Translations under genes and position numbers: made by a program
Assembly (NCBI GenBank): GCA_029939575.1
Contig: JAOZSR010000006.1
Coordinates: 4,037-68,036, forward strand
Length of the DNA stretch: 64,000 nucleotides
Reading direction: 5' to 3'
DNA from: Fidelibacterota bacterium
GTDB taxonomy: Bacteria; Fidelibacterota; UBA2242; JAOZSR01
The notes under the pieces: generated by a model
The model's database searches: none
Told to the model about the DNA's origin: nothing
The model's input: only the letters and a program-made list of their open reading frames with translations
Shown here: piece after piece, positions 1-25,200 of the stretch
How the letters are laid out: every line of letters starts with the position of its first letter
Numbering within the stretch: the stretch's first letter is position 1

Positions 1-614
<614 letters not shown>

Positions 615-689
615 TTAAGTATTAAATAGAGTTCCAGGTTAGTTTGGAGCTCTATCTCTATTATGTTAATATGTAAATTACATTTTTAA

Positions 690-1451
690 TTATTTTGATT
701 TTTTCTCAATATAAGATTTCATAAAAGGTTCAAGCAGATCTATAGGTACAGGGAATATTGTTGTGGAATTATTTTCTACAGCAATATCTTTTAGAGTTTG
801 TAAATATCGTAGTTGGATAGAGGCTGGTTGGGATGCTAATATTTTTGCAGCTTCAGTGAGTTTGTTTGAAGCCTGAAATTCCCCCTCTGCATCAATTATT
901 TTAGCCCTTCGTTCTCGCTCTGCTTCTGCTTGTTTCGCCATTGCCCGCTGCATAACCTGTGGAAGGTCGACATGCTTTATTTCAACTTGTGAAACTTTAA
1001 TTCCCCATGGGTCAGTGTGTTTATCCAGGATTGATTGTAATTCATCATTGATTCTTTCTCGTGATGATAACAACTCATCGAGTTCTGATTCACCTAAAAT
1101 GCTTCTCAGTGTGGTTTGGGCTAATTGAGATGTTGCAAAATTGTAATCTTCTACTTCAATTATTGCTTTTGCTGAGTCCAAAACTCTAAAATAAACAACT
1201 GCGTTAACTTTAATAGAAACATTGTCTTTTGTAATAATGTCCTGCGGTGGAACATCCATAACAACAGTTCTTAAGCTGACTTTTACCATTTTATCTACAA
1301 AGGGAATTAATAAAAACAAGCCCGGGCCTTTTGTTCCGGCTAATCTACCCAATCGAAAAATAACTCCACGTTCATATTCTCTTGTGATTCTGACTGCACT
1401 TACAAAAACGTATAATAATAATACAATAAATACAACAATTGGAATATCCAT
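690..1451 (-). CDS. SPFH/band-7 (stomatin/prohibitin-like) membrane protein
   Basis: N-terminal transmembrane segment followed by an SPFH core ([13 protein letters not shown]...VDLPQ...) and an Ala/Glu/Arg-rich coiled coil ([18 protein letters not shown]). Confidence 0.85.
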
Positions 1452-1460
1452 TTTTTCTCC

Positions 1461-2780
1461 TTAGTTTGATTTTTCTACATTTAATTTCATCTTATTTTTT
1501 ACCACAGAAATAACGGTTATTTCATCACCTTTATTAATATTTTGATTAGATGCTGCCAGCCATATTTCTCCGTGGACAAGCACCTTGCCGGTTTTTTCCG
1601 GAGAAATATCATGGATAACTTCACCAAATTCTCCAATTATTCCTTCTGCTCCGGTTGTGACTTTACTCTTATAAGTTTTTAGAGCCATTGTTAGAGCCAG
1701 TATTATGAACACTGCTGTAAATAGCACAAAGGGAATAATTACTTTTAATGAAATTGAAAAAAGTGCTTGCGGTGCTTCAGAATAGTCGATTAACATCATT
1801 GATCCAAATAGCATTGATATTATTCCTCCAATTGTTAATAATCCAAAACTGGTTATACTGACTTCTAAAATAAATAATATTATTCCTACAATTATTAAGG
1901 CCAGTCCGGCATAATTTATTGGTAAAACCTGGAATGAAAAAAATGCCAGGATCAGACAAATTCCGCCTACTATTCCCGGAACCATGGCACCAGGATTTTT
2001 AATTTCGAACAGAACTCCATAAAAACCAAGCATTAGCAGAATATATGATATATTCGGATCACTAATAATGTTTAATATTTTTCGGTGAACTCCGGGAGGT
2101 TTGTTAATAATTTTTTGGTTTTTAGTATTGATTGTTATTTCTTCGGAATTAATTATCACAGTTTTTCCGTCGAGATAATCGATTAATTCCTTTTGGTCTA
2201 CTACAATTGTATCAATAATATTTTTTTCCAAAGCTTCTGTTTCGGTAATTGATACAGATTTACGAACAGCTTGTTCAAGCCATTGCTCATTTCGGTTTCT
2301 CTCTTGTGCTATAGATCGAATATAAGCTACTGCATCATTTGTGACTTTTTCCATCATAGTTTTTGAGTTAGAAGAATCGGGCCGAGAGCCTCCGATTCCC
2401 CCTGAAAGATTGACCGGATGAGCCGCACCGATATTGGTTCCGGGAGCCATTGCAGCAATATGAGCCGATACAGTAATAAAAACTCCGGCCGAAGCTGATT
2501 GGGCACCACTGGGACTGACATATACTATAATAGGAATATTGGAATTTAATATCTCTTTAATAATTTCCCGCATCGAGGTCATTAATCCACCAGGTGTATC
2601 CAGATTAATAATGATGCATTCAATGTCTTTGTCTTGGGCTTTGGAAATATTTTGAGTGATATAGGAATTTGAGACGGGATTAATTACTCCCTCAACATCT
2701 AAAACCCAAATTTCTCCGGCGAATATTCCAGAGATAGAAAAAAGTATTGTTAATAATAAAATAGAAATTTGTTTTTTCAT
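1461..2780 (-). CDS. NfeD-family membrane-bound ClpP-class serine protease (stomatin operon partner)
   Basis: Signal peptide, then a ClpP/S49-like domain (GVINPVS...SPSGAQSASAGVFI...APGTNIGAAHP), multiple transmembrane helices and a C-terminal OB-fold-like tail. It sits 9 nt upstream of the SPFH gene, which is the classic nfeD-stomatin pairing. Confidence 0.8.
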   Translation of the reverse strand: MKKQISILLLTILFSISGIFAGEIWVLDVEGVINPVSNSYITQNISKAQDKDIECIIINLDTPGGLMTSMREIIKEILNSNIPIIVYVSPSGAQSASAGVFITVSAHIAAMAPGTNIGAAHPVNLSGGIGGSRPDSSNSKTMMEKVTNDAVAYIRSIAQERNRNEQWLEQAVRKSVSITETEALEKNIIDTIVVDQKELIDYLDGKTVIINSEEITINTKNQKIINKPPGVHRKILNIISDPNISYILLMLGFYGVLFEIKNPGAMVPGIVGGICLILAFFSFQVLPINYAGLALIIVGIILFILEVSITSFGLLTIGGIISMLFGSMMLIDYSEAPQALFSISLKVIIPFVLFTAVFIILALTMALKTYKSKVTTGAEGIIGEFGEVIHDISPEKTGKVLVHGEIWLAASNQNINKGDEITVISVVKNKMKLNVEKSN

Positions 2781-2847: not shown

Positions 2848-3288
2848 TTATTTTTGTATTAATATGAAATTTAATTCTACTGGATTTTTTTCAGGCGAAG
2901 TAGATGGATAAGCGATTGCCGCTGAGTTTTCCAACTCTGCAATAATAAAATAGTACAAATTGTCGCACTGTGTCATCTCGGGAATTAATAAAAAAATATA
3001 TTTACCATCCTGATATTTCATAGGAAATTCAGAAAAACTTTTGTCAGAACTGCTTTTGATAAAGATTTTAACAGAAATAATATTGTCATCCTGTGCATCT
3101 ACAACACATTCGATTAGAGAATATTTATTGTAATTTAATTTAGTTTTTGGTTCATGATAAATTTTTGGTTTTGATGAATATATCAGACTATCTTGTGCTG
3201 TTGCCGTACTGTCTCCTGGTGTGTTAGGCCAAAGAGTATTGAAAGAGAGTATTACGAATAGTATGGTTGGAATGTGGTTCATATTCAT
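2848..3288 (-). CDS. hypothetical small secreted protein
   Basis: 146 aa with an N-terminal signal peptide (MNMNHIPTILFVILSFNTLW). It lies 10 nt downstream of the barrel gene on the same strand. Confidence 0.4.
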   Translation of the reverse strand: MNMNHIPTILFVILSFNTLWPNTPGDSTATAQDSLIYSSKPKIYHEPKTKLNYNKYSLIECVVDAQDDNIISVKIFIKSSSDKSFSEFPMKYQDGKYIFLLIPEMTQCDNLYYFIIAELENSAAIAYPSTSPEKNPVELNFILIQK

Positions 3289-3298
3289 TTAATCTCTA

Positions 3299-4600
3299 TC
3301 AAAACATCAATGATGTTGAGATTGTAAACTGATGATCCTGATATTTTTGGGTTGTTGTAGTTTCAAAAAAACTGTTATAAATGGATTTTCTACCCAGTAA
3401 TAATTGGTATGCCAGGTTTATTTTTATCTGATTGTCAAGAAAAAATTCAGTACCAATTCCAAATAGATTGAGATTTTTTTCTTCTTTACCTAAATCGAAA
3501 AAGGGTCTGGGAATAATCCTATATCCCAATTGCAAATTAAAAGCATTAAAAACAGGAAAATATAATCCAAAACCAAACTCAATAGTATTTTTTAAATTAG
3601 TATGTATTTCATTATTAATGGCCGGATCAATGGAAATTGAATCAACAATATCAGAGGAAAACTCAAGACCATGCCAGTTTATTGTACTAAAATCCATGGT
3701 GATTTCCAGGTCGTCGTGAAGAAATGAAATTCCCGATGAGATCTTCCATGGTAACTTAATTTCATATTCAATAGGTCCATAGGCATTTGATTCTGATTCT
3801 TCGTACTGAGGTTCCCGATAAAACCAGGAAATATTTCCCTCCTCCCGAACTTTGAGTTTTAATGGCGTTGATGCTGAAAATCCCCACTTAAAATAGGAAA
3901 ATTTATATAAAGTGCCAAAGGTCATATTCCAGCCTCTAAAATTTGGCTCAAAAGTTTCGTAAGCCCCTAATTGAGAATTATCAGTAAAAAGTGTATCAAA
4001 CCCAATGAAGTTATACTCTCTAAAACCATTATAGCTATTAACAGAGAATCCAATAAATAGATTTTTCCTGTATTCTAAAGAAGTACCGAGTCGTAAAGCA
4101 TTTAGGGAGCCGGTTTCTTTTATTTCTTCTTTAAAATAATAATCTTCGTAATAATCATCATTTTTAAAGGAACCTGAATAATTTAATAGGGTATGGTATT
4201 GGGTCGAAGGTGCATAAGACAACCCAAAAACAAGACTTCCCCGGTAAACCGGAACAGAATAAAGAAACCCAAAACCATCAAATCGGAAATAATCATTTGA
4301 AGTGCTAGTATAATTATTATCAAATTTTAGTTTACTGTTTTGGTTAAAATATCCATTTTGAAAGGATAACAATATTTCATTTTGTTTACTAAGGCCCATG
4401 TTTGCCGGATTGGTGGCTAAAGCTGAAATACCGCTGGAAAAAGCAGTGGTGTTAAATGCCATAGCAGATGAGGATGCTCCAAAATCACGAATATACCAAA
4501 ATGGTTTATAAGCATCTTCAAAGGTCTGGGCAAAAATATTGATTGAGATTCCAAACAAAATGATGAAAAAAAGTATAGAGGGTTTAATTGTTTTAATCAT
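3299..4600 (-). CDS. putative outer-membrane beta-barrel transporter, FadL/OMPP1-like
   Basis: Signal peptide. The N-terminal hatch-like motif (GASSSAMAFNTTAFSSGISALATNPANMG) resembles the FadL GLGRAYSG...NPA motif. The protein is rich in aromatic and Gly/Asn/Ser residues and ends in -MF. Confidence 0.45.
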   Translation of the reverse strand: MIKTIKPSILFFIILFGISINIFAQTFEDAYKPFWYIRDFGASSSAMAFNTTAFSSGISALATNPANMGLSKQNEILLSFQNGYFNQNSKLKFDNNYTSTSNDYFRFDGFGFLYSVPVYRGSLVFGLSYAPSTQYHTLLNYSGSFKNDDYYEDYYFKEEIKETGSLNALRLGTSLEYRKNLFIGFSVNSYNGFREYNFIGFDTLFTDNSQLGAYETFEPNFRGWNMTFGTLYKFSYFKWGFSASTPLKLKVREEGNISWFYREPQYEESESNAYGPIEYEIKLPWKISSGISFLHDDLEITMDFSTINWHGLEFSSDIVDSISIDPAINNEIHTNLKNTIEFGFGLYFPVFNAFNLQLGYRIIPRPFFDLGKEEKNLNLFGIGTEFFLDNQIKINLAYQLLLGRKSIYNSFFETTTTQKYQDHQFTISTSLMF

Positions 4601-4609
4601 TTGGAATCC

Positions 4610-5563
4610 CTATTTTTTTTTGCGGGATCTTGATCTGGAAGAACTTTTTGATTTTGAACTGACTGTTCGATTTGATGATTTGGAATTTGATGATCTTTTG
4701 GATTTATATGATGATCTTGATGAACTGGAGGAGGTTCTGCTGGTTGTAGACTCGATAATGGATGAGGAACCTGATTTGCTATTTCTATTTTTTTTGGAAC
4801 TACCGGAATAAGAGGGACTACTTGAAGACGATGAGGAGTTTGAATCAGGGATTATCAGTCTATCGATTTTGTTTTTCTCTTTTTTAGAGTCGCTGGTTTC
4901 AAGTATTAGTTCTCCGGATTTAATGTTTTTTGTAAAATCCGAAACATTTGGTTGGTTTTGAGGGATTGAATATTTTGAACTTGAGTTATAAAAATTATAA
5001 GTATCATCTTGTTTTAATACTTTTCCATTAGTTGAATTTGTATAAAAGCTGTTCGACATATCGGATGAAGTTGTACGGTTATTATTTGAATTTGCTAAAC
5101 CATTAGTTTGGTTTGAGTTGTGTCTTCTACCTTCTGGTAGCTCCGGTCTTGGGGATTGGTTTTTTGAACCGGAGGAAGAACTTCCATATGAGGCAAATCC
5201 GGAATTATAATATCCTGCAATGTAATAATCGTTATAATATCCGTTATAATAACCAAAAGGATTGCTATATCCATAATAGGAATAAGGAGAGTAATAATTG
5301 TTATAGCCATAAACTCCCCGGTAAAAATTTCTGTTAACTTGGTATCCAGGGTAATAATTATCAATACCATGAGAAAAATACATTGGGTCTGCAAAGGAAT
5401 AACAGCTATAGGGATTGTAATATTCTTCAAAATACGGTTCATCCACGATGTTGGGATTTGTTTCTTCACTGGTAATTGGCGGGTGTATAATTGTATAGCA
5501 TCCATGTAAAAGAAAGATTAACATGAAAAGTAAGATTGTATTAGATTTTATTTTATTTAGCAT
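4610..5563 (-). CDS. secreted low-complexity Tyr/Asn/Gly-rich protein with a Ser/Arg/Lys-rich C-terminal tail
   Basis: Signal peptide (MLNKIKSNTILLFMLIFLLHGC), a long tract of YY/GY/NY repeats (YYSPYSYYGYSNPFGYYNGYYNDYYIAGYYNSGF) and a tail ending ...SSSSSRSSYKSKRSSNSKSSNRTVSSKSKSSSRSRSRKKK. No known domain recognised. Confidence 0.5.
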   Translation of the reverse strand: MLNKIKSNTILLFMLIFLLHGCYTIIHPPITSEETNPNIVDEPYFEEYYNPYSCYSFADPMYFSHGIDNYYPGYQVNRNFYRGVYGYNNYYSPYSYYGYSNPFGYYNGYYNDYYIAGYYNSGFASYGSSSSGSKNQSPRPELPEGRRHNSNQTNGLANSNNNRTTSSDMSNSFYTNSTNGKVLKQDDTYNFYNSSSKYSIPQNQPNVSDFTKNIKSGELILETSDSKKEKNKIDRLIIPDSNSSSSSSSPSYSGSSKKNRNSKSGSSSIIESTTSRTSSSSSRSSYKSKRSSNSKSSNRTVSSKSKSSSRSRSRKKK

Positions 5564-5616
5564 AATGATGCCTCCATTTTCAATTTAATTTATTAAACAA
5601 TTAATATTTAAGCAAG

Positions 5617-5647
5617 TTTCATTCAATCCAATAAAAATTGAATGAAA
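5617..5647. promoter_or_regulatory. perfect 10-bp inverted repeat (TTTCATTCAA-N11-TTGAATGAAA) in the promoter region of the minus-strand 5563..2848 operon
   Basis: Seen directly in the sequence, about 54 bp upstream of the start of the low-complexity gene. Candidate operator. Confidence 0.3.
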
Positions 5648-13434: not shown

Positions 13435-15129
13435 ATGAAATTTCGATTTATATTATTAATAATTATTATAGTATTAGGTGGTACTCTTAGTTGTGAATTT
13501 GAAAAGCCAACATCTTTACAATTACCTGCAAGATGGAATTCACGATTAATTATTCCTCTGTTTGATCAAACTTATGAATTAGCAGATCTGATTTCGGATT
13601 CATCAGATGCTGAACAGAATCCATTATTTGCTGATTCCACAGGTAATATTCATTTTACTTTACAGGATTCACATCAGGCAACTCTTAATTTCAGCACCTC
13701 TGAATGGAATTTACCAGCACACAGTTTGTCTGCTGATACAAACTTTGCTAATATTACTGTTGATACAAGTGGGAATGTCAGCCCAATTCAATTTATAATA
13801 GCTGAAAAAACAAATTTTTTAAAACCACAACTCATTTCCGGTAAAATTGATATGTCACCAGCAAATCGGATAAACTTCCAGGTAGAATTAAGTGACACTC
13901 TAAGTAATCCTATCCAATTAACTATTACTTGTGAAAATTTTAAAGACAGAATTAGTGACACTTTAGAAATAGTGGAAATTTTGTTACCTGTAGGAAGTGA
14001 TTCGACTAATTTTAATTTGAGTGTCAGAGCTGATTCTCTTGTTAATGATGGAATAACTTTATTGGATTCACTTACATTTTCGATACTTTTGAATATTAAT
14101 GATTCCCTGGCAACTCCCGTTGAAGAATTAACCCAGGAGTTATCAATATCAATAGAAGTTAGTCCACTCACTCTCACTTCTTTTTTCGGAACAAGTTATT
14201 TGTCTGAGAAAATATCCGCCCGTAAATTTGAAAAAATTCCTCTTCTTGAAAATGGTGTAGATTTCGATTCCACAGAGATTATTATGGTCTTTAATAATTC
14301 TTCTCACCCTGATATTAAAAACCAGATAATCAGTATTGTTGGAAGGAAAGATGGATTCACCGACGTCCGGAAAGATACTACAGTAAGTTTGCTTATTGAT
14401 ACATTAAAAATGGATATTTCTAAAATTCTATCCCGTTTGCCAGATAGTTTGACAGTATTTTCCATTCCGATTTTAGAGCAAAAAGAATATATCTCCGGGG
14501 GAATAAACAGTATAGGGATTGATGCAAAATATGAAATTAGTGCCCCATTATCCTTTATGTTTTTTGATGAAATAAATATAATATCCGGTAATCCCAATGA
14601 GATTTTTATCAAAGATTCTTTAACCAGATCAAATTTATGCAAATCTCAAAATGGAGTTGCTTTTGATATGGAAGTAGAAAACAGTATGCGATTACCCGGA
14701 TATATTTATCTTATTGCCGGTAATTTCCCGTTGGTAAAATTTGATTCAGCATATATTTCAAATCGGGTTGATTTTTACTGGAATCCCACAATGGATTCTT
14801 TGTTTCATGTTAGTGATGAAACAACTCTTGTCAAATTTGATACGCTTGCGGAAATCGAATTACCTAAGGGTGAATGGGAGGATGTTCAGTTAATAAATCC
14901 GGGATATTCTCAACAAATGTTTTATTCTGATTCCAGTGTTGTTTCGCTATTATTAGATACAATGTATATCATGCCTGCTTTTAAATTATCCAATCCGGAC
15001 TCCATTCCGTTTTCCATAAATACGAATGAATTTTTTAGAATTAAATCCTATTTGAATGTACTCTTTGATCCAAAGGCCTTAACACCGGAATCTCCGGATA
15101 CTTCGGATACAACTTTAATTACAGGATAA
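13435..15129 (+). CDS. large surface lipoprotein, paralog A1 of the duplicated module
   Basis: Lipoprotein signal peptide (…VLGGTLSC). No known domain recognised. Its C-terminal half is similar to that of the protein at 16574..18847. Confidence 0.5.
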   Translation: MKFRFILLIIIIVLGGTLSCEFEKPTSLQLPARWNSRLIIPLFDQTYELADLISDSSDAEQNPLFADSTGNIHFTLQDSHQATLNFSTSEWNLPAHSLSADTNFANITVDTSGNVSPIQFIIAEKTNFLKPQLISGKIDMSPANRINFQVELSDTLSNPIQLTITCENFKDRISDTLEIVEILLPVGSDSTNFNLSVRADSLVNDGITLLDSLTFSILLNINDSLATPVEELTQELSISIEVSPLTLTSFFGTSYLSEKISARKFEKIPLLENGVDFDSTEIIMVFNNSSHPDIKNQIISIVGRKDGFTDVRKDTTVSLLIDTLKMDISKILSRLPDSLTVFSIPILEQKEYISGGINSIGIDAKYEISAPLSFMFFDEINIISGNPNEIFIKDSLTRSNLCKSQNGVAFDMEVENSMRLPGYIYLIAGNFPLVKFDSAYISNRVDFYWNPTMDSLFHVSDETTLVKFDTLAEIELPKGEWEDVQLINPGYSQQMFYSDSSVVSLLLDTMYIMPAFKLSNPDSIPFSINTNEFFRIKSYLNVLFDPKALTPESPDTSDTTLITG

Positions 15130-15134
15130 ATGTA

Positions 15135-16550
15135 TTGAGATCAATTATAAAAAATTTAAGAAATTATTTAAAAGCCTTTTTAATATTTGGTTTTTTCACA
15201 ATTTCTTATCTGTTTTCTCAATCTATCTATTATCCCAGAGCAAAGGGGCTTGGAGGGGCATATTCTACCATTGCAAAAGGCTATAAATGTGCGGCTTATA
15301 ACCCGGCTGGTTTAGCTTTCCCCGGCGAATATAGGAATTATTATGAGATTGGCGGTTGGTCAAAATTCGCTACCAATAATTTTTATTCACTGGCAATTAA
15401 TGGAAAATATGGTGGTAAGGATTTAACAGCGAATAATGGTGAATTACAATCGGAATTTATTGATGATTTGCCTTTAAAAGGCTGGCAAATAAACTTTGGA
15501 CAAAATTTCCCCTTACCATTATTGAATTTTTCAATTGGAAACAAAGCCTTTACAACAAACCTGCTCTATATTGGTGATTATTATGTTGATCGGCCTACTC
15601 TTGATTTGGTTTTTGGAAATTTCCAAAAAGGGAAAAAATACGACATCAATTTGCGTCTTGAATCAATGATGGCCGCCGAATATGGATTTTCCATGGGAAT
15701 TCCATATAACAATCTCGCTCTGGGATTTACTTTAAAATATATCCAGGGGTTGGGGTATTATGGGGTTGACCCAAGCCGGAGTGGTGGGTATATCATAGCA
15801 GATACAACAAATTTTGTGCTCGACGGTAGCGGGGATTTATATTTTCGTACTTCAAACCTTGGACGAGGATTTAGTGCCGATTTTGGATTCATGACAAAGG
15901 ATGTTTTTGGTACAGATATTTCTATAGCTATTAAAAATATTGGTGCGAAAATAGAATGGAATAAACAAAATCTTACACCTGGAAAAATGGGTGAAAGAGC
16001 TTTGGAATTTATGGGAAATCAGTTTAAAACCTGGAATACAGATGTTCAGTTACCTATGAGTGGTGAAATATTTAAATACTCATTTCATATGGATAATGTA
16101 AATGATGCTGAACAAAATGGCTTTTTTCAGGGAGATAGCAGTTATAAAGATTATTTTACAAGCAGTTCTGAAATTATCGACAGCAGTATTGCATTTACTA
16201 CAAAATTGCCAATAATTATTCAAATAGGATTTGCCCGAAATTTTAGTGATGATTTGTTAATAGTAATGGATTTTACAACTTCCTTTGAGGATAAACTAAA
16301 CTATTGGAAAGGATGGCGATCAGCCCTTGGAGCAGAATATTCCTATTTTCCTAAATTTCCATTAAGAATGGGCATGGCAGTTGGAGGACTTTCCGATTGG
16401 GAAATTGACCTGGGGAGTGGATTTCAATTTGGACCGGTTCAATTGGATTGGGCGGTTGGATTTTATGACGGAATATGGCTACATACATTAAAGGGTTATA
16501 GTTTTTCAATTGGTGCCAGCTTTTCATCAGGTAAGTTTAAAAATAAATAA
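15135..16550 (+). CDS. FadL/OMPP1-like outer-membrane beta-barrel, paralog B1
   Basis: Signal peptide. The KGLGGAYSTIAKGYKCAAYNPAGLAF motif resembles the FadL hatch motif GLGRAYSG...NPA. Clear paralog of the protein at 18844..20178. Confidence 0.5.
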   Translation: MRSIIKNLRNYLKAFLIFGFFTISYLFSQSIYYPRAKGLGGAYSTIAKGYKCAAYNPAGLAFPGEYRNYYEIGGWSKFATNNFYSLAINGKYGGKDLTANNGELQSEFIDDLPLKGWQINFGQNFPLPLLNFSIGNKAFTTNLLYIGDYYVDRPTLDLVFGNFQKGKKYDINLRLESMMAAEYGFSMGIPYNNLALGFTLKYIQGLGYYGVDPSRSGGYIIADTTNFVLDGSGDLYFRTSNLGRGFSADFGFMTKDVFGTDISIAIKNIGAKIEWNKQNLTPGKMGERALEFMGNQFKTWNTDVQLPMSGEIFKYSFHMDNVNDAEQNGFFQGDSSYKDYFTSSSEIIDSSIAFTTKLPIIIQIGFARNFSDDLLIVMDFTTSFEDKLNYWKGWRSALGAEYSYFPKFPLRMGMAVGGLSDWEIDLGSGFQFGPVQLDWAVGFYDGIWLHTLKGYSFSIGASFSSGKFKNK

Positions 16551-16573: not shown

Positions 16574-18847
16574 ATGAAGAATTTAGGACAAAGGTTATAT
16601 AAATGGATATTTCCATATATTTTGATTATTTCTGTTTTTCTTATTGGCAATTGTACAATTGATCCCATTAAACCCCCAACTTTACCAACATTTTACCAGA
16701 CGATAAACATTCCATTGGCCAATACCAATTTGCCATTGGCAAATTTACAGGATTCGCTTAATCACATTTTTGGTGATTCTTTGGCGGATTCACTCTGGTT
16801 TTTCTTTGAGGGTAGTCTTGATACAACAACTTTAACTAAGGATATTTTTGTTGTTCCAACGGCAATGGATATTGCATTTTCCCAGGAGTTTTCCGAAATA
16901 AGCGGCTCGGATATTTCTTTTGACACTACATTTAGTAAAATCATGAAATTGTCAGATCATATCCATGTGCCGGGAGTTTCTTTGCCCTTTGGTTTTGATG
17001 TTACCCTGGATTCTCTACAAAGAGAGCCTTTGATCAATGAAAATCATAAGATCAAAATTTTTGACAAATACAGTGTGCCATATTTTAAAAGAGTAGACTA
17101 CCTGACAATAGGCTCCGGTACTTTTAGCACGGAAATTACAAATGAACTACTTGTGGATATAGATTCAGTAAATATTGAATTATATAATATTGATGGAGAA
17201 TCAATTTCTAAATTATTTTTTGATAAGATACCGGCAGGAGAAAGCAGGTCAAAAGGTGAGGAAGGAAACCTGGCTGGAAAAAAAATGAGTGATTCGGTAG
17301 CCATTCAAATTAGTGCGATTTTTGCCGGAACAGATGGAGAGCCTTTATTAATTCCAGCCGAAACAGATCCTTTTGTAGATGTTGCTGTCAGGTTTGCTGT
17401 AGATAGTGTAGAAAGTTTTACCGGTATTCCCGAGCCTATAGAACTTTCCCAGTCAATACCAATACCAAGTTCAAATAATACAATTATAAGAGGAATTTAT
17501 TCCGATGTTCTTAGCGATTCACCGGATACAAACCAGATAACATTTCAGGTTCAGAATGATATGCAGGTAAATATTGATTTAGATATATCATTTTTGAATT
17601 TTTACGGTTCAAGCGGTATGTTGAATATTCATAACACATATTTTGCAGGTACTAGCGGTAGTGATATTTTACGCCTGGACAATGATACTTTAAGAAATTC
17701 TGATGCCAGTACTATTGTTGATTCAATAATTGTTCAGACTTTTGTAAACCTGGTTCCTGATGTTGGAGATACAGTGACTACAATACCCCTTTCTTCTCTC
17801 GATCAGAGTTTGGATATTAATATTAATGTGGCAATAATGCAATTTTCAGAAATTGTGGGATTTTTTAATGAATCTTTTGCAATTCCGCCGATAACAATTG
17901 AAGACATTCCCACTGGTTTTAGTGGCATTGATTTTGGAAATGTGTTCCTTAATTTGAAATTAAATAGTGAAATCCAGGCAAGTACTGATCTTAATCTTGA
18001 GATCGGTGGTTATCGCACTGGTTATGAGCCCGAAATTATTGAAATTATCCAAACAATTAATAAAGCCAGCGATACGAATCCGGTTGCAGAATCATCAGTA
18101 TCAATAGATATCGCTCCTGTATTCAACCTTATGCCGGATTCAATTATGGTAGATGGTGATGCATCGATACCTGCAAATGATACATCAAAATTACAAGTTG
18201 GAAAATCCTTTTGGGGGAATTATGAAATTACTGTACCTTTTAAATTAAAACTGGATCCACTTACTTTTATTCCTGTAAGTTCTACCACCTTTAATCCAAT
18301 CAGCAGCCAAATTGCTGAAAAACTTCGCTCCGGATTTATTGAAGCAAAAGTTATTAGTAAAGTAGAAAATAATTTTCCACTGGCCTGTATAATCGAGATT
18401 TTAATTTCAGATTTTGATTATTTTCCTATGGATAGCAGTACAGCTGATTCCGGGTATAATTGGATTGGAGATTCATTATTTGCAGATACTGATACCGGTC
18501 TGATACATATAAAAATTGACACTCTGGTTAGTATTGAATTGCCAAAACCCAATGAATTTAATCAGGATGGAAGTGTGAAAATTCCGTCAATATTGAATCA
18601 GCATAGCAATTTGGATTCTTTAACCTTTGAATCAATTTTAGAAGACAAAGTGCATTATATCAGGCCGAGAGTTTATTTAATTGGTACAGAAGATTATGTG
18701 ACAGTTAAACTCAGCGATGAAATAAAAATTCTTACTTTAATAAGTGTCACCATGGAAGCCGGAAAGTTTATTGGCCTTGACAATGACGAGTCTTCCGATA
18801 CTCTTGAAATTGATAATTTATCCAGAATAACCACAAATGGACATTGA
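16574..18847 (+). CDS. large surface lipoprotein, paralog A2
   Basis: Lipobox (…FLIGNC). Shares C-terminal blocks with A1 (NNFPL…, DTLxxIELPKxxE…). Confidence 0.5.
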   Translation: MKNLGQRLYKWIFPYILIISVFLIGNCTIDPIKPPTLPTFYQTINIPLANTNLPLANLQDSLNHIFGDSLADSLWFFFEGSLDTTTLTKDIFVVPTAMDIAFSQEFSEISGSDISFDTTFSKIMKLSDHIHVPGVSLPFGFDVTLDSLQREPLINENHKIKIFDKYSVPYFKRVDYLTIGSGTFSTEITNELLVDIDSVNIELYNIDGESISKLFFDKIPAGESRSKGEEGNLAGKKMSDSVAIQISAIFAGTDGEPLLIPAETDPFVDVAVRFAVDSVESFTGIPEPIELSQSIPIPSSNNTIIRGIYSDVLSDSPDTNQITFQVQNDMQVNIDLDISFLNFYGSSGMLNIHNTYFAGTSGSDILRLDNDTLRNSDASTIVDSIIVQTFVNLVPDVGDTVTTIPLSSLDQSLDININVAIMQFSEIVGFFNESFAIPPITIEDIPTGFSGIDFGNVFLNLKLNSEIQASTDLNLEIGGYRTGYEPEIIEIIQTINKASDTNPVAESSVSIDIAPVFNLMPDSIMVDGDASIPANDTSKLQVGKSFWGNYEITVPFKLKLDPLTFIPVSSTTFNPISSQIAEKLRSGFIEAKVISKVENNFPLACIIEILISDFDYFPMDSSTADSGYNWIGDSLFADTDTGLIHIKIDTLVSIELPKPNEFNQDGSVKIPSILNQHSNLDSLTFESILEDKVHYIRPRVYLIGTEDYVTVKLSDEIKILTLISVTMEAGKFIGLDNDESSDTLEIDNLSRITTNGH

Positions 18848-20178
18848 TCTTGATTAAATTTTTCCAATTTGTAATATTAATGACAGTTATATCTGTTGGA
18901 ATAAATGCGCAGACTCGTCGTGATCCCCGTGGAATGGCCTTGGCCGGGGCTTATGGATTGATGTCGCGTGGATATTTTTGTATAGATTATAATCCGGCAA
19001 ATCTGGCTATCCATGATCGTTATAAAAGTTATCGCTCTTTGGGCGGTTTGAATTTTGGATTTTCCAATAATTTTTTATCTTTATCTGAATATCAGAAATA
19101 TAACGGGAAAAATTTTGAAGCCGATAATGGGAAATTAAAAAACGAGTTTTTAACCAATTTGCCTAAAAATGGATGGCGGATTTTTTCAGATTTTCACTTT
19201 TCGCTTCCTCTGATTAATTATTCTTCAGTTAATAAAGCAATAACTTCAGATATAATTGTGATTGGAGATTTGGGATTGCCCAGAGGATTGATTTATTTTC
19301 TTTTTGATGGAAATCCATTAGATCGGGAATTGGATTTAGATTTTTCAGAAGAAACCCTGGCTATTGCACAGTGGGCATATTCTTTTGCGATTCCGGTTAA
19401 AAACTTTAATGTGGGTTTATCTCTGAAATATCTAATGGGAGGAGCATTTTTTGGTCTTGATCCGGATTCATCTTATGGCTCAATAACAACCAGTTTTGAA
19501 AGTGGGATAAATGGGAATGGCCATTATTTATTTGAGCAGAAAATTGGTGGACATGGTTTTGGAATTGATATCGGAGTTAATACTGAAAAAATTAATGGAT
19601 TCCGATTTGGCGTTTCAATAACCAACTTATTTGCAAATATAAATTTTGGCAAAGAAACGGTTATCACCAGAATGATTGATGCAGAAAAGATTCTTCCGTG
19701 GGATGGTAAGTTTTACCAGGTGGATTTTGAAATTGATAGCGCTAGTTTTGAAAAGTTTTTTGCCGGTGCCGGTTATGATGAGATCTTTAAAAGTGAGAAT
19801 ACAACAATAGAAAATCATAATAATATGAGTATCCGCTATCCATCTTTGGTACGATTTAGTGTTTCGAAAGATATTCAGGAAGAATCAGTATTAGCAATAG
19901 ATTTTGTGGCAGGCTTTGAAGATCGCTTATTTTCTTTTGGATCATGGAAATTCTGTGCCGGAGTCGAGACAACTCATTTTCCTCATACGCCATTACGGAT
20001 TGGAGTTGCATTTGGAGGAAAGGATCATCGATCTTTAAATTTCGGAAGCGGCTATCATCGTGGTTTTTTTCATTTTGATTGGGCTTTGGGATTCACTCAT
20101 TCTATATTTATCAAAAGTTCCAAAGGGTTGGAGTTTTCTGTAAATTTATTTACAACAAGATTGTGGAAAATAAAATAG
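18844..20178 (+). CDS. FadL/OMPP1-like outer-membrane beta-barrel, paralog B2
   Basis: Signal peptide. RGMALAGAYGLMSRGYFCIDYNPANLA motif. Collinear similarity to B1 (…NNGELQSEF/…DNGKLKNEF; LPLKGWQINF/LPKNGWRIFS). Confidence 0.5.
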   Translation: MILIKFFQFVILMTVISVGINAQTRRDPRGMALAGAYGLMSRGYFCIDYNPANLAIHDRYKSYRSLGGLNFGFSNNFLSLSEYQKYNGKNFEADNGKLKNEFLTNLPKNGWRIFSDFHFSLPLINYSSVNKAITSDIIVIGDLGLPRGLIYFLFDGNPLDRELDLDFSEETLAIAQWAYSFAIPVKNFNVGLSLKYLMGGAFFGLDPDSSYGSITTSFESGINGNGHYLFEQKIGGHGFGIDIGVNTEKINGFRFGVSITNLFANINFGKETVITRMIDAEKILPWDGKFYQVDFEIDSASFEKFFAGAGYDEIFKSENTTIENHNNMSIRYPSLVRFSVSKDIQEESVLAIDFVAGFEDRLFSFGSWKFCAGVETTHFPHTPLRIGVAFGGKDHRSLNFGSGYHRGFFHFDWALGFTHSIFIKSSKGLEFSVNLFTTRLWKIK

Positions 20179-22201: not shown

Positions 22202-25200
22202 ATGAAGGCATATAACATTAAAAAAAACATAGTGTTATTTTTAATTTTATTTTTAATATCATTTGCAAACGGGCAATATGGAAAAAATAAAGTTTGCTAT
22301 GACGAATTTGACTGGAATTATATTCAAACAGAGCATCTGGATATATTTTTTTATGAAGGTGGTGAAGAGTTAGCAAAGTTTGCAGCACCAATTGCGGAAA
22401 GACAATTTAAACGGATTCAGAATGTTTTAAAATGGGAAGTAAATAAGCGAACAGCCTTATTGATTTACAATTCTCATAATGATTTTCAGCAGACTAATGT
22501 TACTTTGAGTTATATGACAGAGGGAATAGGTGGGTTTACAGAACTTTTTAAAAATAGAGCGGTAGTTGCTTTTGAGGGAGATTATCATGGCTTTTGGCAT
22601 GTAATAAAACATGAATTGGTACATGTTGTTGTAAATGATATGGTTTATGGTGGTAATATTCAAAGTGTTATTTCAGGGCGAGTGCAATTAAACATACCTT
22701 TATGGATGAATGAAGGTTTGGCTGAATATTTGTCATGGAATTGGGATACACATGCCGACCTTATGCTTCGTGATATAGCCATGAGCAATAATATTCCTGA
22801 TATCAAATATTTGGATTATTATATGGCATATAAAGGTGGTCAATCTGTTTACCAGTTTATTTCGCAGAAATATGGTGAAGAAAAAATTGGAGAAATATGG
22901 CGCACTATAAAAAGTAAAAAAAATGTTGATAAAGGTTTTGAAGCATGTATTGGTATGGATACTGAGGAATTATCAGAAGAATGGCATAAATGGCTAAGAC
23001 GTGAATATTGGCCGGAAGTTGCTGATAGGGATGAACTGGAAAGTATTGCCATTCGTATTACCGACCATAAAAAATTAAAAAATCATTTTAATACTGCTCC
23101 GGCTATTTCTCCAAACGGAGAAAAAATTGCATTTATTTCCGATAGGAATGGATATGCAGATATTTATCTTGCTTCAGCCCGAGATGGTGAAATTTTAAAA
23201 AGAGTTGTTCGTGGTCAAAAATCTCCTGATTTGGAAGAGATAAAATGGCTAAATCCAAGATTAAGTTGGTCTCCGGATGGGAAAGAACTTGTATTAGCGA
23301 CAAAAAGTGGAAATACAGATGCACTCATAATGGTTAATGTGGAAACAGGAGATATAAAGAAAAAAACATTTGATAATTTAGAAGAAATTTTTTCTGCAGC
23401 CTGGTCACCAGAGGGAGATAAAATAGCATTTATCGGATTGAAACAATATTATACAGATGTTTATTGTTATCATATTAAAGAAGATCGATTGGAACAATTT
23501 ACTGATGATATTTTTTCGGATTTTGAGCCTTCATGGTCACCTGACGGGTCAAAAATAATTTTTTCTTCTCAAAGAGGATGTGATGGTGAAATTAAAAAAT
23601 TTAAATTATCAAAAGATATTTCTAGGATTAACTATCATCAAAAGGATTTGTTTATTTTAGATTCAGAGTCAAAAGAAATCCATAGGGTAACAAATAGTCC
23701 TTACGAAGAAGATAGCCCGATCTGGATGAAACAAAAAAACGAAATATTATTTTGCTCTGATGAAAGCGGGATCACAAATTTTTATACATTAAACTTAGAA
23801 ACTAATAAACTTACAGCATTGTCAAATGTCCTTACTGGCGCATTTCAACCATCAATGAACTATGATGATACAAGGCTGGTTTTTGCCGGGTACTCAGATC
23901 AGGGATGGGATATTTATTCAATCAGTAATCCGATGGGTAGAAGCAGTGATTCTTTGATTATTGCCCCTACGGGATTTGTTTCCAAGCGGCCAAAAGTATG
24001 GGAACAGTGGGCAGAAAAAGGAGAATTAGAAATCAAGAAAGATGAAAAATTTTCTGTTACACGGAAAATTGAAGAGGAAAAATCCTATTCAAATTATATT
24101 TTTGCACCTGGATATGATGAATGGAAAGAGTCCAATGAAAGTCCCTATGATTCGGAAAAAGATTTAGTTGAAAAATTGGATTCTGTTAATTATCAAACAA
24201 AAGAGGGCGAATTTGTTGTAAATGAATATAAAACCAAGTTGTCTCTTGATTTGGTCGATAATCGGGCCGGATATAGTACTTTTTGGGGTTTTCAGGGAAC
24301 GACTGTTTTTTCTTTTAGTGATGTTTTAGGTAATCATCGTATTTTGTTTGGAACTGAAATGTATCTTGATTTGGAAAATAGTGACTATTATCTCAGTTAT
24401 CAATATTTAACAAATAAAACTAATATTTATTTTTCAGCTTTTCACTCTGCTAATTTTTATTCTTCTGGATATTATTCCATGTGGCGGTTAAGAAATTATG
24501 GAGCAAGTACATCATTTTCGCGACCTTTATCCAAATTTACAAGGCTGGAATATGGTTTAACTCTGTACAATGTTGAGCAAAATTTAATTGATATTTTAAC
24601 TAGTCAAACTCTTCAAGAGACCAAAATTCACACAATTTTGCCACAGGCTTCCTGGGTTTTTGATAACACTCTTTGGGCATATTTTTATCCTATTGATGGC
24701 TGGCGAGCCAGAGCTGATCTTACTGGTAGTCCAAGGTATAATAAAAACAGTCTGGAATTTGTATCATTAAATCTAGATTTTCGTCGCTATTTTAAACTAA
24801 ACAGGGAATATTCCTTTGCTTTACGTTTCAGTGGTGGAATAAGTGAAGGTAAGAATGCTCAGCGTTTTTTCCTGGGTGGAGAAACAAATTGGATAAATCA
24901 AAAATTTAAACATTATCATAATTTTAGTAATGCAGAAGATATTTATTTTTCTCGGTTTATAACCCCTTTGCGAGGAGCCAGGTATTATGAAAGAGAAGGA
25001 ACAAGGTATTTTCTGACTAACTTTGAATTCCGTTATCCCTTTATAAAATATCTCCAGTTGGGTTGGCCAATTCCACTTATAACCGGTGGAATTCAAGGAG
25101 TTACTTTCCTTGATATTGGTTCAGCCTGGCATGATAGTAATTTTCATCCTTTTACCAGAACAGCCGGTAATGATTTAATTATGGATGACCTGGTTGGAGG

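What the first reader, a model, noticed from the sequence alone, without database searches (positions are those of the whole stretch)
2848..5563. Operon of a Tyr/Asn/Gly-rich secreted low-complexity protein (Ser/Arg/Lys tail), a FadL-like barrel and a small secreted protein
The three minus-strand genes are separated by only 9-10 nt. The first encodes a signal-peptide protein dominated by YY/GY/NY repeats (YYSPYSYYGYSNPFGYYNGYYNDYY…) and ending in a roughly 80-aa Ser/Arg/Lys-rich, strongly basic tail. That composition recalls adhesive or self-assembling matrix proteins and eukaryotic SR tails, not any bacterial family I recognise. The second encodes a third FadL-like OM barrel. The third encodes a 146-aa secreted protein. 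The arrangement of a dedicated OM channel next to an aggregation-prone secreted substrate echoes functional-amyloid systems such as Fap or curli. A perfect 10-bp palindrome sits in the promoter at 5617-5647.
Basis: partly seen in the sequence, partly recalled or inferred. Interest (0 to 1): 0.6.

Follow-up and report, generated by a model that had tools for sequence, protein, structure and literature searches.

The report
Disordered tyrosine-rich lipoprotein paired with FadL-like barrel
The three genes are real, and the first two form a previously undescribed, widely conserved outer-membrane pair: a fully disordered, tyrosine-rich, positively tailed lipoprotein that always sits next to its own FadL-type barrel, which looks like a docking complex and not like an amyloid secretion system.

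Summary
Three minus-strand genes lie 9 and 10 nt apart. They encode a 317-aa Tyr-rich protein with a 75-aa Ser/Lys/Arg tail, a 433-aa barrel and a 146-aa secreted protein. An 11-bp palindrome lies upstream.

New findings:
- The first protein is a lipoprotein (lipobox LHGC). AlphaFold predicts its mature chain to be entirely disordered.
- It founds a family with no Pfam or NCBIfam model. All 78 members checked carry an invariant lipidated N-terminus, C-Y-T-x-(L/I/V/F)-x-x-P. An aromatic block with a Y(Y/F)DP motif follows, then a polar spacer and a basic C-terminal tip.
- In all 14 barrel lineages examined (20-44% identity to the window barrel), the lipoprotein gene lies beside the barrel gene. 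Named members are Marinimicrobia and Latescibacteria. Searches started from the barrel, the lipoprotein and the small protein all found the same arrangement.
- The barrel has a FadL/TodX fold with an invariant NPA hatch motif. Its best structural match is BamG of the Bacteroidota BAM complex.
- An ECF-sigma-type -35 motif (GGAACTT) recurs upstream.

Best reading: a BamG-BamH-like docked barrel-lipoprotein complex tied to the cell envelope. The Fap/curli-type amyloid export reading is not supported. Function and orientation in the membrane remain unproven.

The parts
4610..5563 (-). Gene for the 317-aa CYT lipoprotein, an intrinsically disordered Tyr-rich, cationic-tailed protein
   Evidence: ORF. 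Lipobox LHG-C22 and family-wide invariant C-Y-T. AF2 pLDDT 45.9, with only the signal helix structured. No Pfam or NCBIfam model.
5501..5563 (-). Signal peptide, residues 1-21, ending in the lipobox L-H-G before Cys22
   Evidence: Sequence. AF2 helix at residues 2-21.
5441..5500 (-). Lipidated N-terminal tail, residues 22-41 (CYTIIHPPITSEETNPNIVD). Holds the invariant C-Y-T-x-hydrophobic-x-x-P motif, then an acidic patch. Proposed barrel-docking peptide.
   Evidence: Alignments A3, A4 and A7. Position statistics: C, Y, T in 78/78 members, hydrophobic residue at +5 in 78/78, Pro at +8 in 64/78.
5168..5440 (-). Aromatic core, residues 42-132 (Y 30%), with the family Y(Y/F)(D/S/N)P(F/Y/W) motif
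   Evidence: Composition. Motif nearly invariant in A3.
4838..5167 (-). Polar Asn/Ser/Thr-rich linker, residues 133-242, opening with a basic motif (PEGRRH)
4613..4837 (-). Ser/Lys/Arg tail, residues 243-317, net +18, ending SRSRSRKKK
   Evidence: A basic C-terminal tip is conserved across the family: the last 12 residues have median net charge +5, and 65 of 78 members reach +3 or more.
3299..4600 (-). Gene for the 433-aa FadL-fold outer-membrane barrel. Signal peptide is residues 1-24.
   Evidence: AF2 pLDDT 86.7 and pTM 0.82, about 14 strands plus an N-terminal hatch. Foldseek top hit BtBamG 9hiv_F at 1e-17, then TodX and FadL. Family profile versus PDB: TbuX at 1e-9.
4493..4528 (-). Conserved N-terminal extension of the mature barrel, residues 25-36 (QTFEDAYKPFWY)
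   Evidence: Invariant Q25, E28, D29, A30, P33, F34 in A1. The [ED]D[AV]LR motif precedes the canonical G.GAR..GMG segment in 10 of 14 lineages. The mature N-terminus is about 6-10 residues longer than in TbuX.
4403..4411 (-). NPA hatch motif (N64-P65-A66), a FadL-family hallmark
   Evidence: Invariant in A1 and A2. Aligns to the NPA of TbuX, TodX and CymD.
2848..3288 (-). Gene for the 146-aa secreted small protein. Probably an Ig-like beta-sandwich domain at residues ~38-142. Accessory gene found only in a sub-lineage.
   Evidence: 35 relatives among 1.84 billion representative proteins. Conserved motifs in A8. The domain repeats in large multi-Ig proteins. Same position in L005, L009 and L041; absent in L001, L006, L008 and L037.
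5593..5620 (-). Putative ECF-sigma-type promoter: -35 GAAACTT (5620-5614), 16-nt spacer, TTTAA (5597-5593), 57 nt upstream of the ATG
   Evidence: G[GA]AACTT lies 57-111 nt upstream of the lipoprotein gene in 7 of about 14 lineages. Background density is 20 per 128 kb, giving P about 4e-11. L006, L008 and L009 read G[GA]AACTT-N16-TCAAA.
5617..5647 (.). Perfect 11-nt inverted repeat with a 9-nt spacer, overlapping the -35 element
   Evidence: Not conserved in related loci, so its significance is uncertain.
690..2780 (-). Downstream co-directional nfeD (1461-2780) and SPFH/Band-7 (690-1451) genes. These are syntenic context, not part of the core.
   Evidence: Pfam. Conserved downstream only in the Marinimicrobia-like lineages. 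Absent in other phyla.

Best explanation
The locus encodes a conserved two-protein outer-membrane complex plus a lineage-specific accessory protein. It is built like the BamG-BamH pair of the Bacteroidota BAM machine.

The FadL-fold barrel is not a protein-secretion pore. It is the membrane dock for its cognate lipoprotein. The lipoprotein's invariant lipidated N-terminus (Cys-Tyr-Thr-x-hydrophobic-x-x-Pro) binds the barrel, probably together with the barrel's own conserved N-terminal extension ([E/D]-D-A-L-R-P-F). The remaining ~290 residues are disordered and stay tethered at the outer membrane as a flexible chain: an aromatic (Tyr/Trp/Phe) block, then a polar spacer, then a cationic tip.

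The pair is transcribed from an ECF-sigma-type promoter, which suggests it belongs to an envelope stress or biogenesis programme. My committed guess for the role is envelope maintenance. The aromatic block would make weak multivalent contacts with aromatic-rich unfolded outer-membrane proteins, much as the disordered Tyr/Gly/Asn-rich loop EL3 of Bacteroidota BamA may do. The cationic tip would bind anionic envelope polymers such as LPS, phospholipid or peptidoglycan.

Shown: gene linkage, lipobox, family signature, predicted disorder, FadL fold and the promoter motif. Inferred: physical docking, BAM-like or envelope role, and orientation (surface or periplasm).
For: Linkage. All 14 barrel lineages (<50% mutual identity; 20-44% to the window barrel) have a CYT lipoprotein gene adjacent, with gaps of -4 to +114 nt. 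The order is flipped once, and there are tandem duplicates in three lineages. Searching from the lipoprotein gave 4 of 4 contexts with a FadL-like barrel just downstream. Searching from the small protein gave the same three genes.

Docking element. C-Y-T is invariant in 78/78 members, +5 is hydrophobic in 78/78 and Pro is at +8 in 64/78. Other lipoproteins in the same window lack this motif. The barrel N-terminus is invariant-rich.

Precedent. In BtBAM and FjBAM, the conserved lipidated N-terminus of BamH is wedged into BamG and contacts BamG's conserved, extended N-terminus. The paralogous bamG2-bamH2 genes form an operon. BamG and BamH occur in 6 of 7 FCB phyla. BamA EL3 is a disordered Tyr/Gly/Asn-rich loop.

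Fold. BtBamG is the top Foldseek hit (1e-17, TM 0.63-0.67), ahead of TodX and FadL. PorV is far weaker at 2e-7.

Disorder. The mature lipoprotein has pLDDT below 50 and no secondary structure.

Promoter. The GGAACTT -35 motif is enriched upstream, P about 4e-11. An ECF sigma gene lies upstream on the same strand in L039.

Genomic setting. The pair sits among housekeeping genes (ileS, ligA, lptFG), not in a mobile island.
Against: - No direct evidence of binding.
- BamG leads TodX and FadL only marginally in Foldseek. At the sequence level the nearest solved relatives are the transporters TbuX and TodX, not BamG. The NPA transport motif is retained.
- The partner lipoprotein is nothing like BamH, which is a folded CBM-like scaffold.
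- CYT lipoproteins fail the Bacteroidota surface-export rule of at least 2 acidic residues within 6 residues of the Cys. A surface location like BamH's is therefore not supported.
- Latescibacteria-type barrels lack the N-terminal extension yet keep CYT partners.
- The ECF promoter is a motif inference, and its -10 region varies.
- The window holds two other lipoprotein-barrel pairs that could be the true BamG/BamH orthologues.
Confidence: 0.4

Rival explanations
1. Surface adhesive or phase-separating brush. The barrel helps display or anchor the lipoprotein on the cell surface. There its Tyr-rich block and Arg/Lys-rich tail act as a wet adhesive or a self-associating, condensate-like layer, through cation-pi and Tyr-Arg 'sticker' contacts. 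This could serve particle attachment or a matrix.
For: Composition. The aromatic content is 23% in the N-terminal half and 2% in the C-terminal half; the C-terminal half has median net charge +11. The window core is Y 30%, G 12%, N 11%, S 13%. From my own knowledge, this resembles mussel foot proteins Mfp-3/5 and the Tyr-domain plus Arg-domain grammar of FUS-family proteins. The chain is fully disordered. Members come from particle-associated marine or sediment lineages (Marinimicrobia, Latescibacteria). SLP-barrel complexes are a hallmark of FCB bacteria.
Against: The Bacteroidota-type lipoprotein export signal is absent in 78/78 members. FadL-fold barrels are not known to export lipoproteins. 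Latescibacteria-type cores are W/R/P-rich and look less prion-like. There are no expression or localisation data.
Confidence: 0.2
2. Hydrophobic-substrate uptake unit. The barrel is a working FadL/TodX-type channel for fatty acids or aromatic compounds. The tethered aromatic-rich lipoprotein captures or concentrates such ligands for it, as SusD does for SusC.
For: The sequence profile hits the hydrocarbon channels TbuX (1e-9), TodX and CymD. The NPA hatch motif is invariant. One distant family member passes Pfam Toluene_X (45.5 bits).
Against: The barrel carries a conserved N-terminal extension. In BamG such an extension occupies the lateral transport opening. No fatty-acid or aromatic catabolic genes are linked in any locus. 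An ECF-type promoter and housekeeping synteny are atypical for a catabolic uptake system. A 75-aa polycationic tail has no obvious role in lipid capture.
Confidence: 0.15
3. Periplasmic tether or sensor. The lipoprotein is anchored in the inner leaflet of the outer membrane. Its long disordered chain spans the periplasm, and its cationic tip contacts peptidoglycan or anionic inner-membrane lipids. It would report or set envelope spacing, in the manner of RcsF or Lpp. The barrel would be its anchoring partner, as OmpA/C/F are for RcsF.
For: No surface-export signal is present. A basic C-terminal tip is conserved even where the rest of the tail differs. An ECF/envelope-stress-type promoter motif lies upstream. 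The disordered chain of 150-380 residues is long enough to cross a periplasm.
Against: The tip is Arg, Lys or mixed, and sometimes ends in Leu or Asn, so covalent Lpp-like attachment is unlikely. This reading does not explain the conserved aromatic block. No inner-membrane partner gene is conserved; NfeD/SPFH are linked only in one clade.
Confidence: 0.15
4. One reading: a Fap/curli-like system in which the barrel secretes the Tyr-rich protein, which then forms a functional amyloid or matrix.
For: Gene adjacency and operon structure. The composition is aggregation-prone. The small third protein is probably an Ig-like beta-sandwich. From my own knowledge, this is superficially like the curli chaperone CsgC.
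Against: The protein is lipid-anchored. The barrel is a plugged 14-strand FadL fold, not a CsgG- or FapF-type pore. There are no amyloid-type repeats and no predicted beta structure. The third gene is missing from most lineages. No nucleator or other accessory genes are conserved.
Confidence: 0.03

Closest known systems
BamG-BamH (and the paralogous BamG2-BamH2 operon) of the Bacteroidota/FCB BAM complex (PMC12578637, PMC12611786; PDB 9hiv, 9n2d, 9hjm)
   Same: A FadL-fold 14-strand barrel with a conserved, extended N-terminus is paired with a lipoprotein that has a highly conserved lipidated N-terminus. The paralogue genes are adjacent in an operon. The distribution is across the FCB superphylum. 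BtBamG is the best structural hit. A disordered Tyr-rich element also exists in that machine (BamA EL3).
   Different: There is no sequence-level similarity to BamG. The partner is entirely disordered, where BamH is a folded CBM-like scaffold. The partner lacks the acidic surface-export signal. Association with BamA is untested.
FadL/TodX/TbuX/CymD hydrophobic-compound channels (Pfam PF03349)
   Same: The fold, the N-terminal hatch and the invariant NPA motif match. The family profile hits TbuX at 1e-9.
   Different: The window protein is below the Pfam threshold. It has an added conserved N-terminal extension and an obligate lipoprotein partner gene. No catabolic genes are linked.
RcsF threaded through OmpA/OmpC/OmpF (enterobacterial envelope-stress sensor)
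   Same: An outer-membrane lipoprotein with a disordered, basic segment works in complex with a beta-barrel and is tied to envelope stress signalling. This comparison rests on my own knowledge.
   Different: RcsF has a folded C-terminal domain, uses general porins and is not genetically linked to them. There is no homology.
Curli (CsgA/B/G/E/F/C) and Fap (FapA-F) functional-amyloid systems
   Same: An operon combines an outer-membrane barrel with an aggregation-prone low-complexity protein.
   Different: Those substrates are soluble repeat proteins, not lipoproteins. Their channels are CsgG nonamers or FapF trimers, not FadL-fold barrels. None of the accessory genes are present here.
Slam-dependent surface lipoproteins of Neisseria (a barrel gene next to its cognate lipoprotein gene)
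   Same: A dedicated outer-membrane barrel is encoded beside the lipoprotein it serves. This comparison rests on my own knowledge.
   Different: Slam is a DUF560 barrel with a TPR domain, and its substrates are folded. There is no homology.
Tyr-rich/cationic disordered proteins: mussel foot proteins Mfp-3/5, FUS-type Tyr plus Arg domains, plant extensins, Bacillus spore-coat CotG/CotB Ser-Arg-Lys regions
   Same: The composition is shared: Tyr/Gly/Asn/Ser-rich blocks combined with Arg/Lys-rich Ser tracts, in disordered and self-associating or adhesive proteins. This comparison rests on my own knowledge.
   Different: The resemblance is compositional only. None of these is a lipoprotein or is linked to a barrel.

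Membership tests
Bacterial lipoprotein (SPase II substrate) | N-terminal signal peptide ending in a lipobox [LVI][ASTVI][GAS]-C | tested here: met
   The window has L-H-G-C22. His at -2 is atypical, but -3 Leu and -1 Gly fit. Homologues have LSSC, LSGC, LGGC, ITGC, FAGC and LTGC.
FadL/TodX outer-membrane transporter family (PF03349) | 14-stranded beta-barrel with an N-terminal hatch domain | tested here: met
   AF2 model: pLDDT 86.7, about 14 strands, helical N-terminal segment at residues 25-74. Foldseek E 1e-17 to 1e-11 against BamG, TodX and FadL.
FadL/TodX outer-membrane transporter family (PF03349) | Conserved NPA motif in the hatch | tested here: met
   N64-P65-A66 is invariant in A1 and A2 and aligns with the NPA of TbuX, TodX and CymD.
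FadL/TodX outer-membrane transporter family (PF03349) | Pfam Toluene_X score above the gathering threshold | tested here: not met
   The window protein scores 19.7 bits against a 29.7 cut-off. The distant family member in L029 passes at 45.5 bits. The family profile hits TbuX at E 1e-9.
FadL/TodX outer-membrane transporter family (PF03349) | [quoted passage not shown] | not testable with these tools
BamG (FCB-type BAM subunit) | FadL fold with a conserved N-terminal extension of about 10-12 residues | tested here: inconclusive
   A conserved extension, QTFEDAYKPFWY, is present. It is about 6-10 residues longer than the TbuX N-terminus. It occurs in 10 of 14 lineages. Whether it threads the lateral opening could not be checked.
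BamG (FCB-type BAM subunit) | Detectable sequence homology to BtBamG, FjBamG or PgBamG | tested here: not met
   No BamG chain appears in HMMER searches of the PDB, even at E<=10. Similarity is structural only.
BamG (FCB-type BAM subunit) | Stable association with BamA, and essentiality | not testable with these tools
   This needs biochemistry or genetics.
BamH (FCB-type BAM surface lipoprotein) | Folded two-domain scaffold (CBM-like) with a conserved lipidated N-terminus bound to BamG | tested here: not met
   A conserved lipidated N-terminus is present. However, the mature chain is predicted to be fully disordered, with no Pfam hit.
Bacteroidota surface-exposed lipoprotein (LES rule) | At least 2 acidic residues within the six residues after the lipidated Cys (PMC12578637) | tested here: not met
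   All 78 members have 0 or 1 acidic residue there. The window has YTIIHP. The window's 564-aa lipoprotein (C-EFEKPT) does meet the rule.
Curli/Fap functional amyloid systems | Soluble repeat-containing amyloid subunit, a dedicated CsgG- or FapF-type secretion channel, and nucleator/chaperone genes | tested here: not met
   The subunit is lipidated. The barrel has a FadL fold. No Pfam hits to Csg or Fap families were found. No beta structure is predicted.

The most novel reading that the evidence does not exclude
CYT lipoproteins are a new class of lipid-anchored, fully disordered 'sticker' polymers, with a Tyr/Trp block and an Arg/Lys tail. Their placement, possibly surface display, depends on a dedicated FadL-fold barrel that recognises the invariant Cys-Tyr-Thr N-terminus. 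They would form an adhesive or condensate-like layer on the outer membrane of Marinimicrobia, Latescibacteria and related FCB bacteria. That would mean both a new lipoprotein sorting or anchoring signal and a new kind of bacterial surface material.
Probability: 0.15. Interest if true: 0.85.

Novelty: new variant of a known kind. Interest (0 to 1): 0.62.

Why it matters
Stable barrel-lipoprotein complexes define the FCB outer membrane, and a FadL-like barrel (BamG) was only recently found at the core of its BAM machine.

This locus shows a second FadL-barrel/lipoprotein module. It is phylogenetically broad and strictly gene-linked, and its lipoprotein is wholly disordered. The lipoprotein carries an invariant N-terminal tripeptide that looks like a recognition signal.

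The family has no Pfam or NCBIfam model. It is partly missing from the large protein collection searched here, and in one locus (L036) the gene caller mis-called the opposite strand. That probably explains why it has gone unnoticed.

If the docking model holds, it gives a simple, testable system for two questions: how FadL-fold barrels bind lipoprotein N-termini, and what tethered Tyr-rich disordered chains do at the outer membrane. The second question also applies to the unexplained Tyr-rich loop of Bacteroidota BamA.

Tried and rejected
- A direct phmmer-type search with the 317-aa protein found nothing. The exact sequence is not in the collection, and composition filters suppress hits to those relatives that are. 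A trimmed family profile (A4) was needed.
- Single-sequence HMMER searches of all three window barrels and both large lipoproteins against the PDB gave only noise. A search with the N-terminal fragment of a distant barrel gave only a weak PorV hit.
- I tried to model the complex as a natural read-through fusion, since the two genes share a frame. The stop codon was rejected. A MAFFT co-alignment misplaced the lipoprotein homologues onto the barrel.
- Rfam found nothing credible in the locus.
- The palindrome as a conserved operator is rejected, because it is absent upstream of homologues.
- NfeD/SPFH as part of the system is rejected, because linkage is confined to one clade.
- PorV/T9SS shuttle identity is rejected (Foldseek 2e-7 versus 1e-17 for BamG).
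The nearest named genome is a Candidatus Marinimicrobia MAG with the same synteny.
- Literature searches found no description of the family.

Full report
**Observation.** They are separated by 9 and 10 nt. nfeD (1461-2780) and an SPFH/Band-7 gene (690-1451) follow on the same strand, 67 nt further on. No terminator-like site separates the genes.

The region is not an assembly artefact. Contigs from three other samples match it with at most 4 mismatches. The Ser-rich tail is encoded by six different Ser codons.

**The first protein.** Its signal peptide ends in a lipobox (L-H-G-C22), so it is a lipoprotein. Its mature chain has four segments:
- An N-terminal tail, residues 22-41 (CYTIIHPPITSEETNPNIVD).
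- An aromatic core, residues 42-132 (Y 30%, S 13%, G 12%, N 11%).
- A polar Asn/Ser linker, residues 133-242.
- A 75-aa tail, residues 243-317 (S 52%, K 15%, R 11%, net +18), ending SRSRSRKKK.

Pfam and NCBIfam find nothing. AlphaFold2, run with a 16-sequence family alignment, gives mean pLDDT 45.9. Only the signal-peptide helix is confident, and the mature chain has no secondary structure. It is therefore predicted to be an intrinsically disordered protein, not a beta-solenoid or other repeat fold.

**The barrel.** Pfam Toluene_X is sub-threshold at 19.7 bits against a 29.7 cut-off. An AF2 model (pLDDT 86.7, pTM 0.82) shows about 14 strands behind a helical N-terminal hatch.

Foldseek against the PDB ranks the hits as follows:
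- Bacteroides thetaiotaomicron BamG (9hiv_F): E 1e-17, TM 0.63-0.67.
- TodX and FadL: E 1e-15 to 1e-14.
- F. johnsoniae and P. gingivalis BamG: also among the top hits.
- PorV: only 2e-7.

At the sequence level, a 14-member profile hits TbuX (1e-9), TodX and CymD, but no BamG. The FadL hallmark NPA motif (N64-P65-A66) is invariant.

The mature N-terminus, QTFEDAYKPFWY, is the most conserved stretch of the protein. It extends about 6-10 residues beyond the TbuX N-terminus.

**The third protein.** It has a plain signal peptide. Its ~100-residue domain has 35 relatives among 1.84 billion representative proteins and strongly conserved motifs. The domain also occurs as repeats in large multi-Ig-domain proteins. 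It is most likely an Ig-like beta-sandwich.

It occupies the same position in L005, L009 and L041/42. It is absent from L001, L006, L008, L037 and all distant lineages. It is therefore an accessory gene of one sub-lineage.

**Conservation and linkage.** This is the key result.
- A direct search with the lipoprotein found nothing. The protein is not in the collection.
- Starting from the barrel, genome and metagenome scans and contig look-ups gave about 35 loci.
- In every locus with enough flanking sequence, the barrel gene is adjacent to a lipoprotein gene of the same architecture. In L036 the gene caller had missed it and called a spurious ORF on the opposite strand.
- The barrels fall into 14 lineages at less than 50% mutual identity, and 20-44% identity to the window barrel. 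All 14 have the partner, with gaps of -4 to +114 nt. The order is flipped in L029. Three lineages carry two tandem copies.
- A profile of the trimmed lipoprotein alignment then retrieved 61 database proteins. None has a Pfam domain. The only organism names are Candidatus Latescibacteria and Candidatus Marinimicrobia.
- Four contexts looked up from these lipoproteins all show a 424-478-aa FadL-like barrel just downstream.
- Starting from a homologue of the third gene led again to the same three genes.

The closest named genome is a Marinimicrobia MAG (GCA_017656425.1). It shares the synteny lptFG / pair / nfeD / SPFH / ligA, and its barrel is 33% identical to the window's.

**Family signature.** In 78 of 78 members with the motif in register:
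- The mature protein starts C-Y-T.
- Position +5 is L, I, V or F.
- Position +8 is Pro in 64 members.

Two other lipoproteins in the same window start CEFEKP and CTIDPI, so C-Y-T is not a general feature of this organism.

Further shared features are:
- A Y(Y/F)DP(F/W/Y) motif in the aromatic block.
- Aromatic content of 23% in the N-terminal half against 2% in the C-terminal half.
- A C-terminal half with median net charge +11.
- A basic tip: the last 12 residues have median net charge +5.

Tail chemistry varies between lineages: poly-Ser/Arg/Lys, Asn/Gly/Arg, SYSPPxR heptads or Lys/Glu mixtures. The cationic tip persists throughout.

**Upstream region.** The palindrome is real, with 11-nt arms at 5617-5627 and 5637-5647. 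It is mildly unlikely by chance in its own intergenic region, about 0.03, and it is not conserved in related loci.

More telling is the heptamer G[GA]AACTT. It lies 57-111 nt upstream of the lipoprotein start codon in the window (5620-5614, overlapping one palindrome arm) and in L001, L005, L006/L008, L009, L013 and L024. Near variants occur in L015, L022 and L036. Its background density in the window is 20 per 128 kb of strand, and only one other copy precedes a gene. Finding it in at least 7 of about 14 lineages has P about 4e-11 if lineages are treated as independent.

L006, L008 and L009 read G[GA]AACTT-N16-TCAAA. From my own knowledge, this matches the E. coli sigma-E consensus. In L039 an ECF sigma gene lies three genes upstream on the same strand. 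I infer ECF-sigma-dependent transcription. This is a motif-based inference only.

**Comparison with what is known.** Two 2025 papers describe the Bacteroidota BAM complex:
- BamG is a FadL-fold barrel whose conserved N-terminus is extended by about 10-12 residues and threads the lateral opening.
- The highly conserved lipidated N-terminus of the surface lipoprotein BamH is wedged into BamG and touches that extension.
- The paralogues bamG2 and bamH2 form an operon.
- BamG and BamH occur in six of seven FCB phyla.
- BamA carries an unexplained disordered Tyr/Gly/Asn-rich loop.

The present pair shares the logic: a FadL barrel with a conserved extended N-terminus, a partner lipoprotein with an invariant lipidated N-terminus, operon linkage and FCB-type hosts.

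It is not BamG/BamH, for four reasons:
- There is no sequence similarity to BamG.
- The partner is disordered rather than a folded scaffold.
- The partner fails the Bacteroidota surface-export rule.
- The barrels of the two Latescibacteria-type loci (L028, L038), and of L029 and L039, lack the extension.

The Fap/curli analogy fails on every defining feature. The substrate is lipid-anchored, the barrel has a plugged FadL fold, there are no amyloid repeats, and no accessory genes are conserved.

**Mechanism.** Best-supported, at about 0.4: a docked barrel-lipoprotein complex in which C-Y-T-x-hydrophobic-x-x-P is the docking peptide. The disordered aromatic-then-cationic chain stays tethered at the outer membrane, as part of an ECF-controlled envelope programme.

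The rivals are:
- A surface adhesive or condensate-like brush (0.2).
- A FadL-type uptake unit with a ligand-capturing lipoprotein (0.15).
- A periplasm-spanning tether or sensor (0.15).
- Amyloid export (0.03).

Orientation (surface or periplasm), physical binding and function are all inferred, not shown.

**Limits.**
- No complex model could be made.
- The lineages are not statistically independent.
- The database sample of the lipoprotein family is dominated by Latescibacteria-type sequences.

Noticed in passing
window 13435-16550 (+) and 16574-20178 (+): Two further lipoprotein-plus-FadL-like-barrel gene pairs. The first is a 564-aa lipoprotein (starts C-EFEKPT, so it passes the Bacteroidota surface-export rule) with a 471-aa barrel (weak Toluene_X hit). 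The second is a 757-aa lipoprotein with a 444-aa barrel (weak DUF5723/TraF_2 hits). Neither lipoprotein has a Pfam or PDB sequence hit. They are candidates for the organism's true BamH/BamG-like units.
   Followed up: partly
window 5593-5620 (-); also L001, L005, L006, L008, L009, L013, L015, L022, L024, L036, upstream of the lipoprotein genes: A conserved ECF-sigma-type -35 motif, G[GA]AACTT. In three loci it forms the full GGAACTT-N16-TCAAA pattern. Enrichment is P about 4e-11. The cognate sigma factor and the rest of its regulon were not identified.
   Followed up: partly
L032 963-4001, L034 897-4001, L040 4063-6688: In three distant lineages the barrel is preceded by two tandem CYT lipoproteins. 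One of them has SYSPPxR heptad repeats reminiscent of the RNA polymerase II CTD. Further upstream are a ~257-aa protein with a faint YjbH (exopolysaccharide-associated barrel) hit and, in L032 and L034, a ~140-aa membrane-anchored Ig-like protein.
   Followed up: no
L036 166-1086 (+) versus called gene 605-1117 (-); window 5095-5505 (-): Gene callers mis-handle these low-complexity genes. In L036 a spurious opposite-strand ORF was called in place of the 306-aa CYT lipoprotein. In the window, a 136-aa alternative-frame ORF overlaps the Tyr-rich region. Several family members, including the window protein, are missing from the 15-billion-protein collection. This hides the family from routine homology searches.
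   Followed up: partly
window 690-2780 (-); L005, L006, L008, L009, L037, L041: An NfeD-SPFH/Band-7 pair followed by ligA lies immediately downstream and co-directional in all Marinimicrobia-like lineages, but not in other phyla. This may be co-transcription or only inherited synteny.
   Followed up: partly
window 3302-5563 (-): The lipoprotein and barrel genes are in the same reading frame, separated only by a TAG stop codon and three codons. Stop-codon read-through would fuse them. There is no evidence that this happens.
   Followed up: no
L003 and L004, contig ends ~300 nt upstream of the barrel gene: Two independent Logan assemblies break inside the Ser-rich tail coding region. This suggests the low-complexity stretch hampers short-read assembly, even though the shared sequence matches the window.
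   Followed up: no
window 22202-25324 (+) and 59762-62878 (+): Two large envelope proteins elsewhere in the window. One is a 1040-aa Peptidase_MA plus PD40 beta-propeller protein. The other is a 1038-aa polysaccharide-export protein with six SLBB domains (Wza-like).
   Followed up: no
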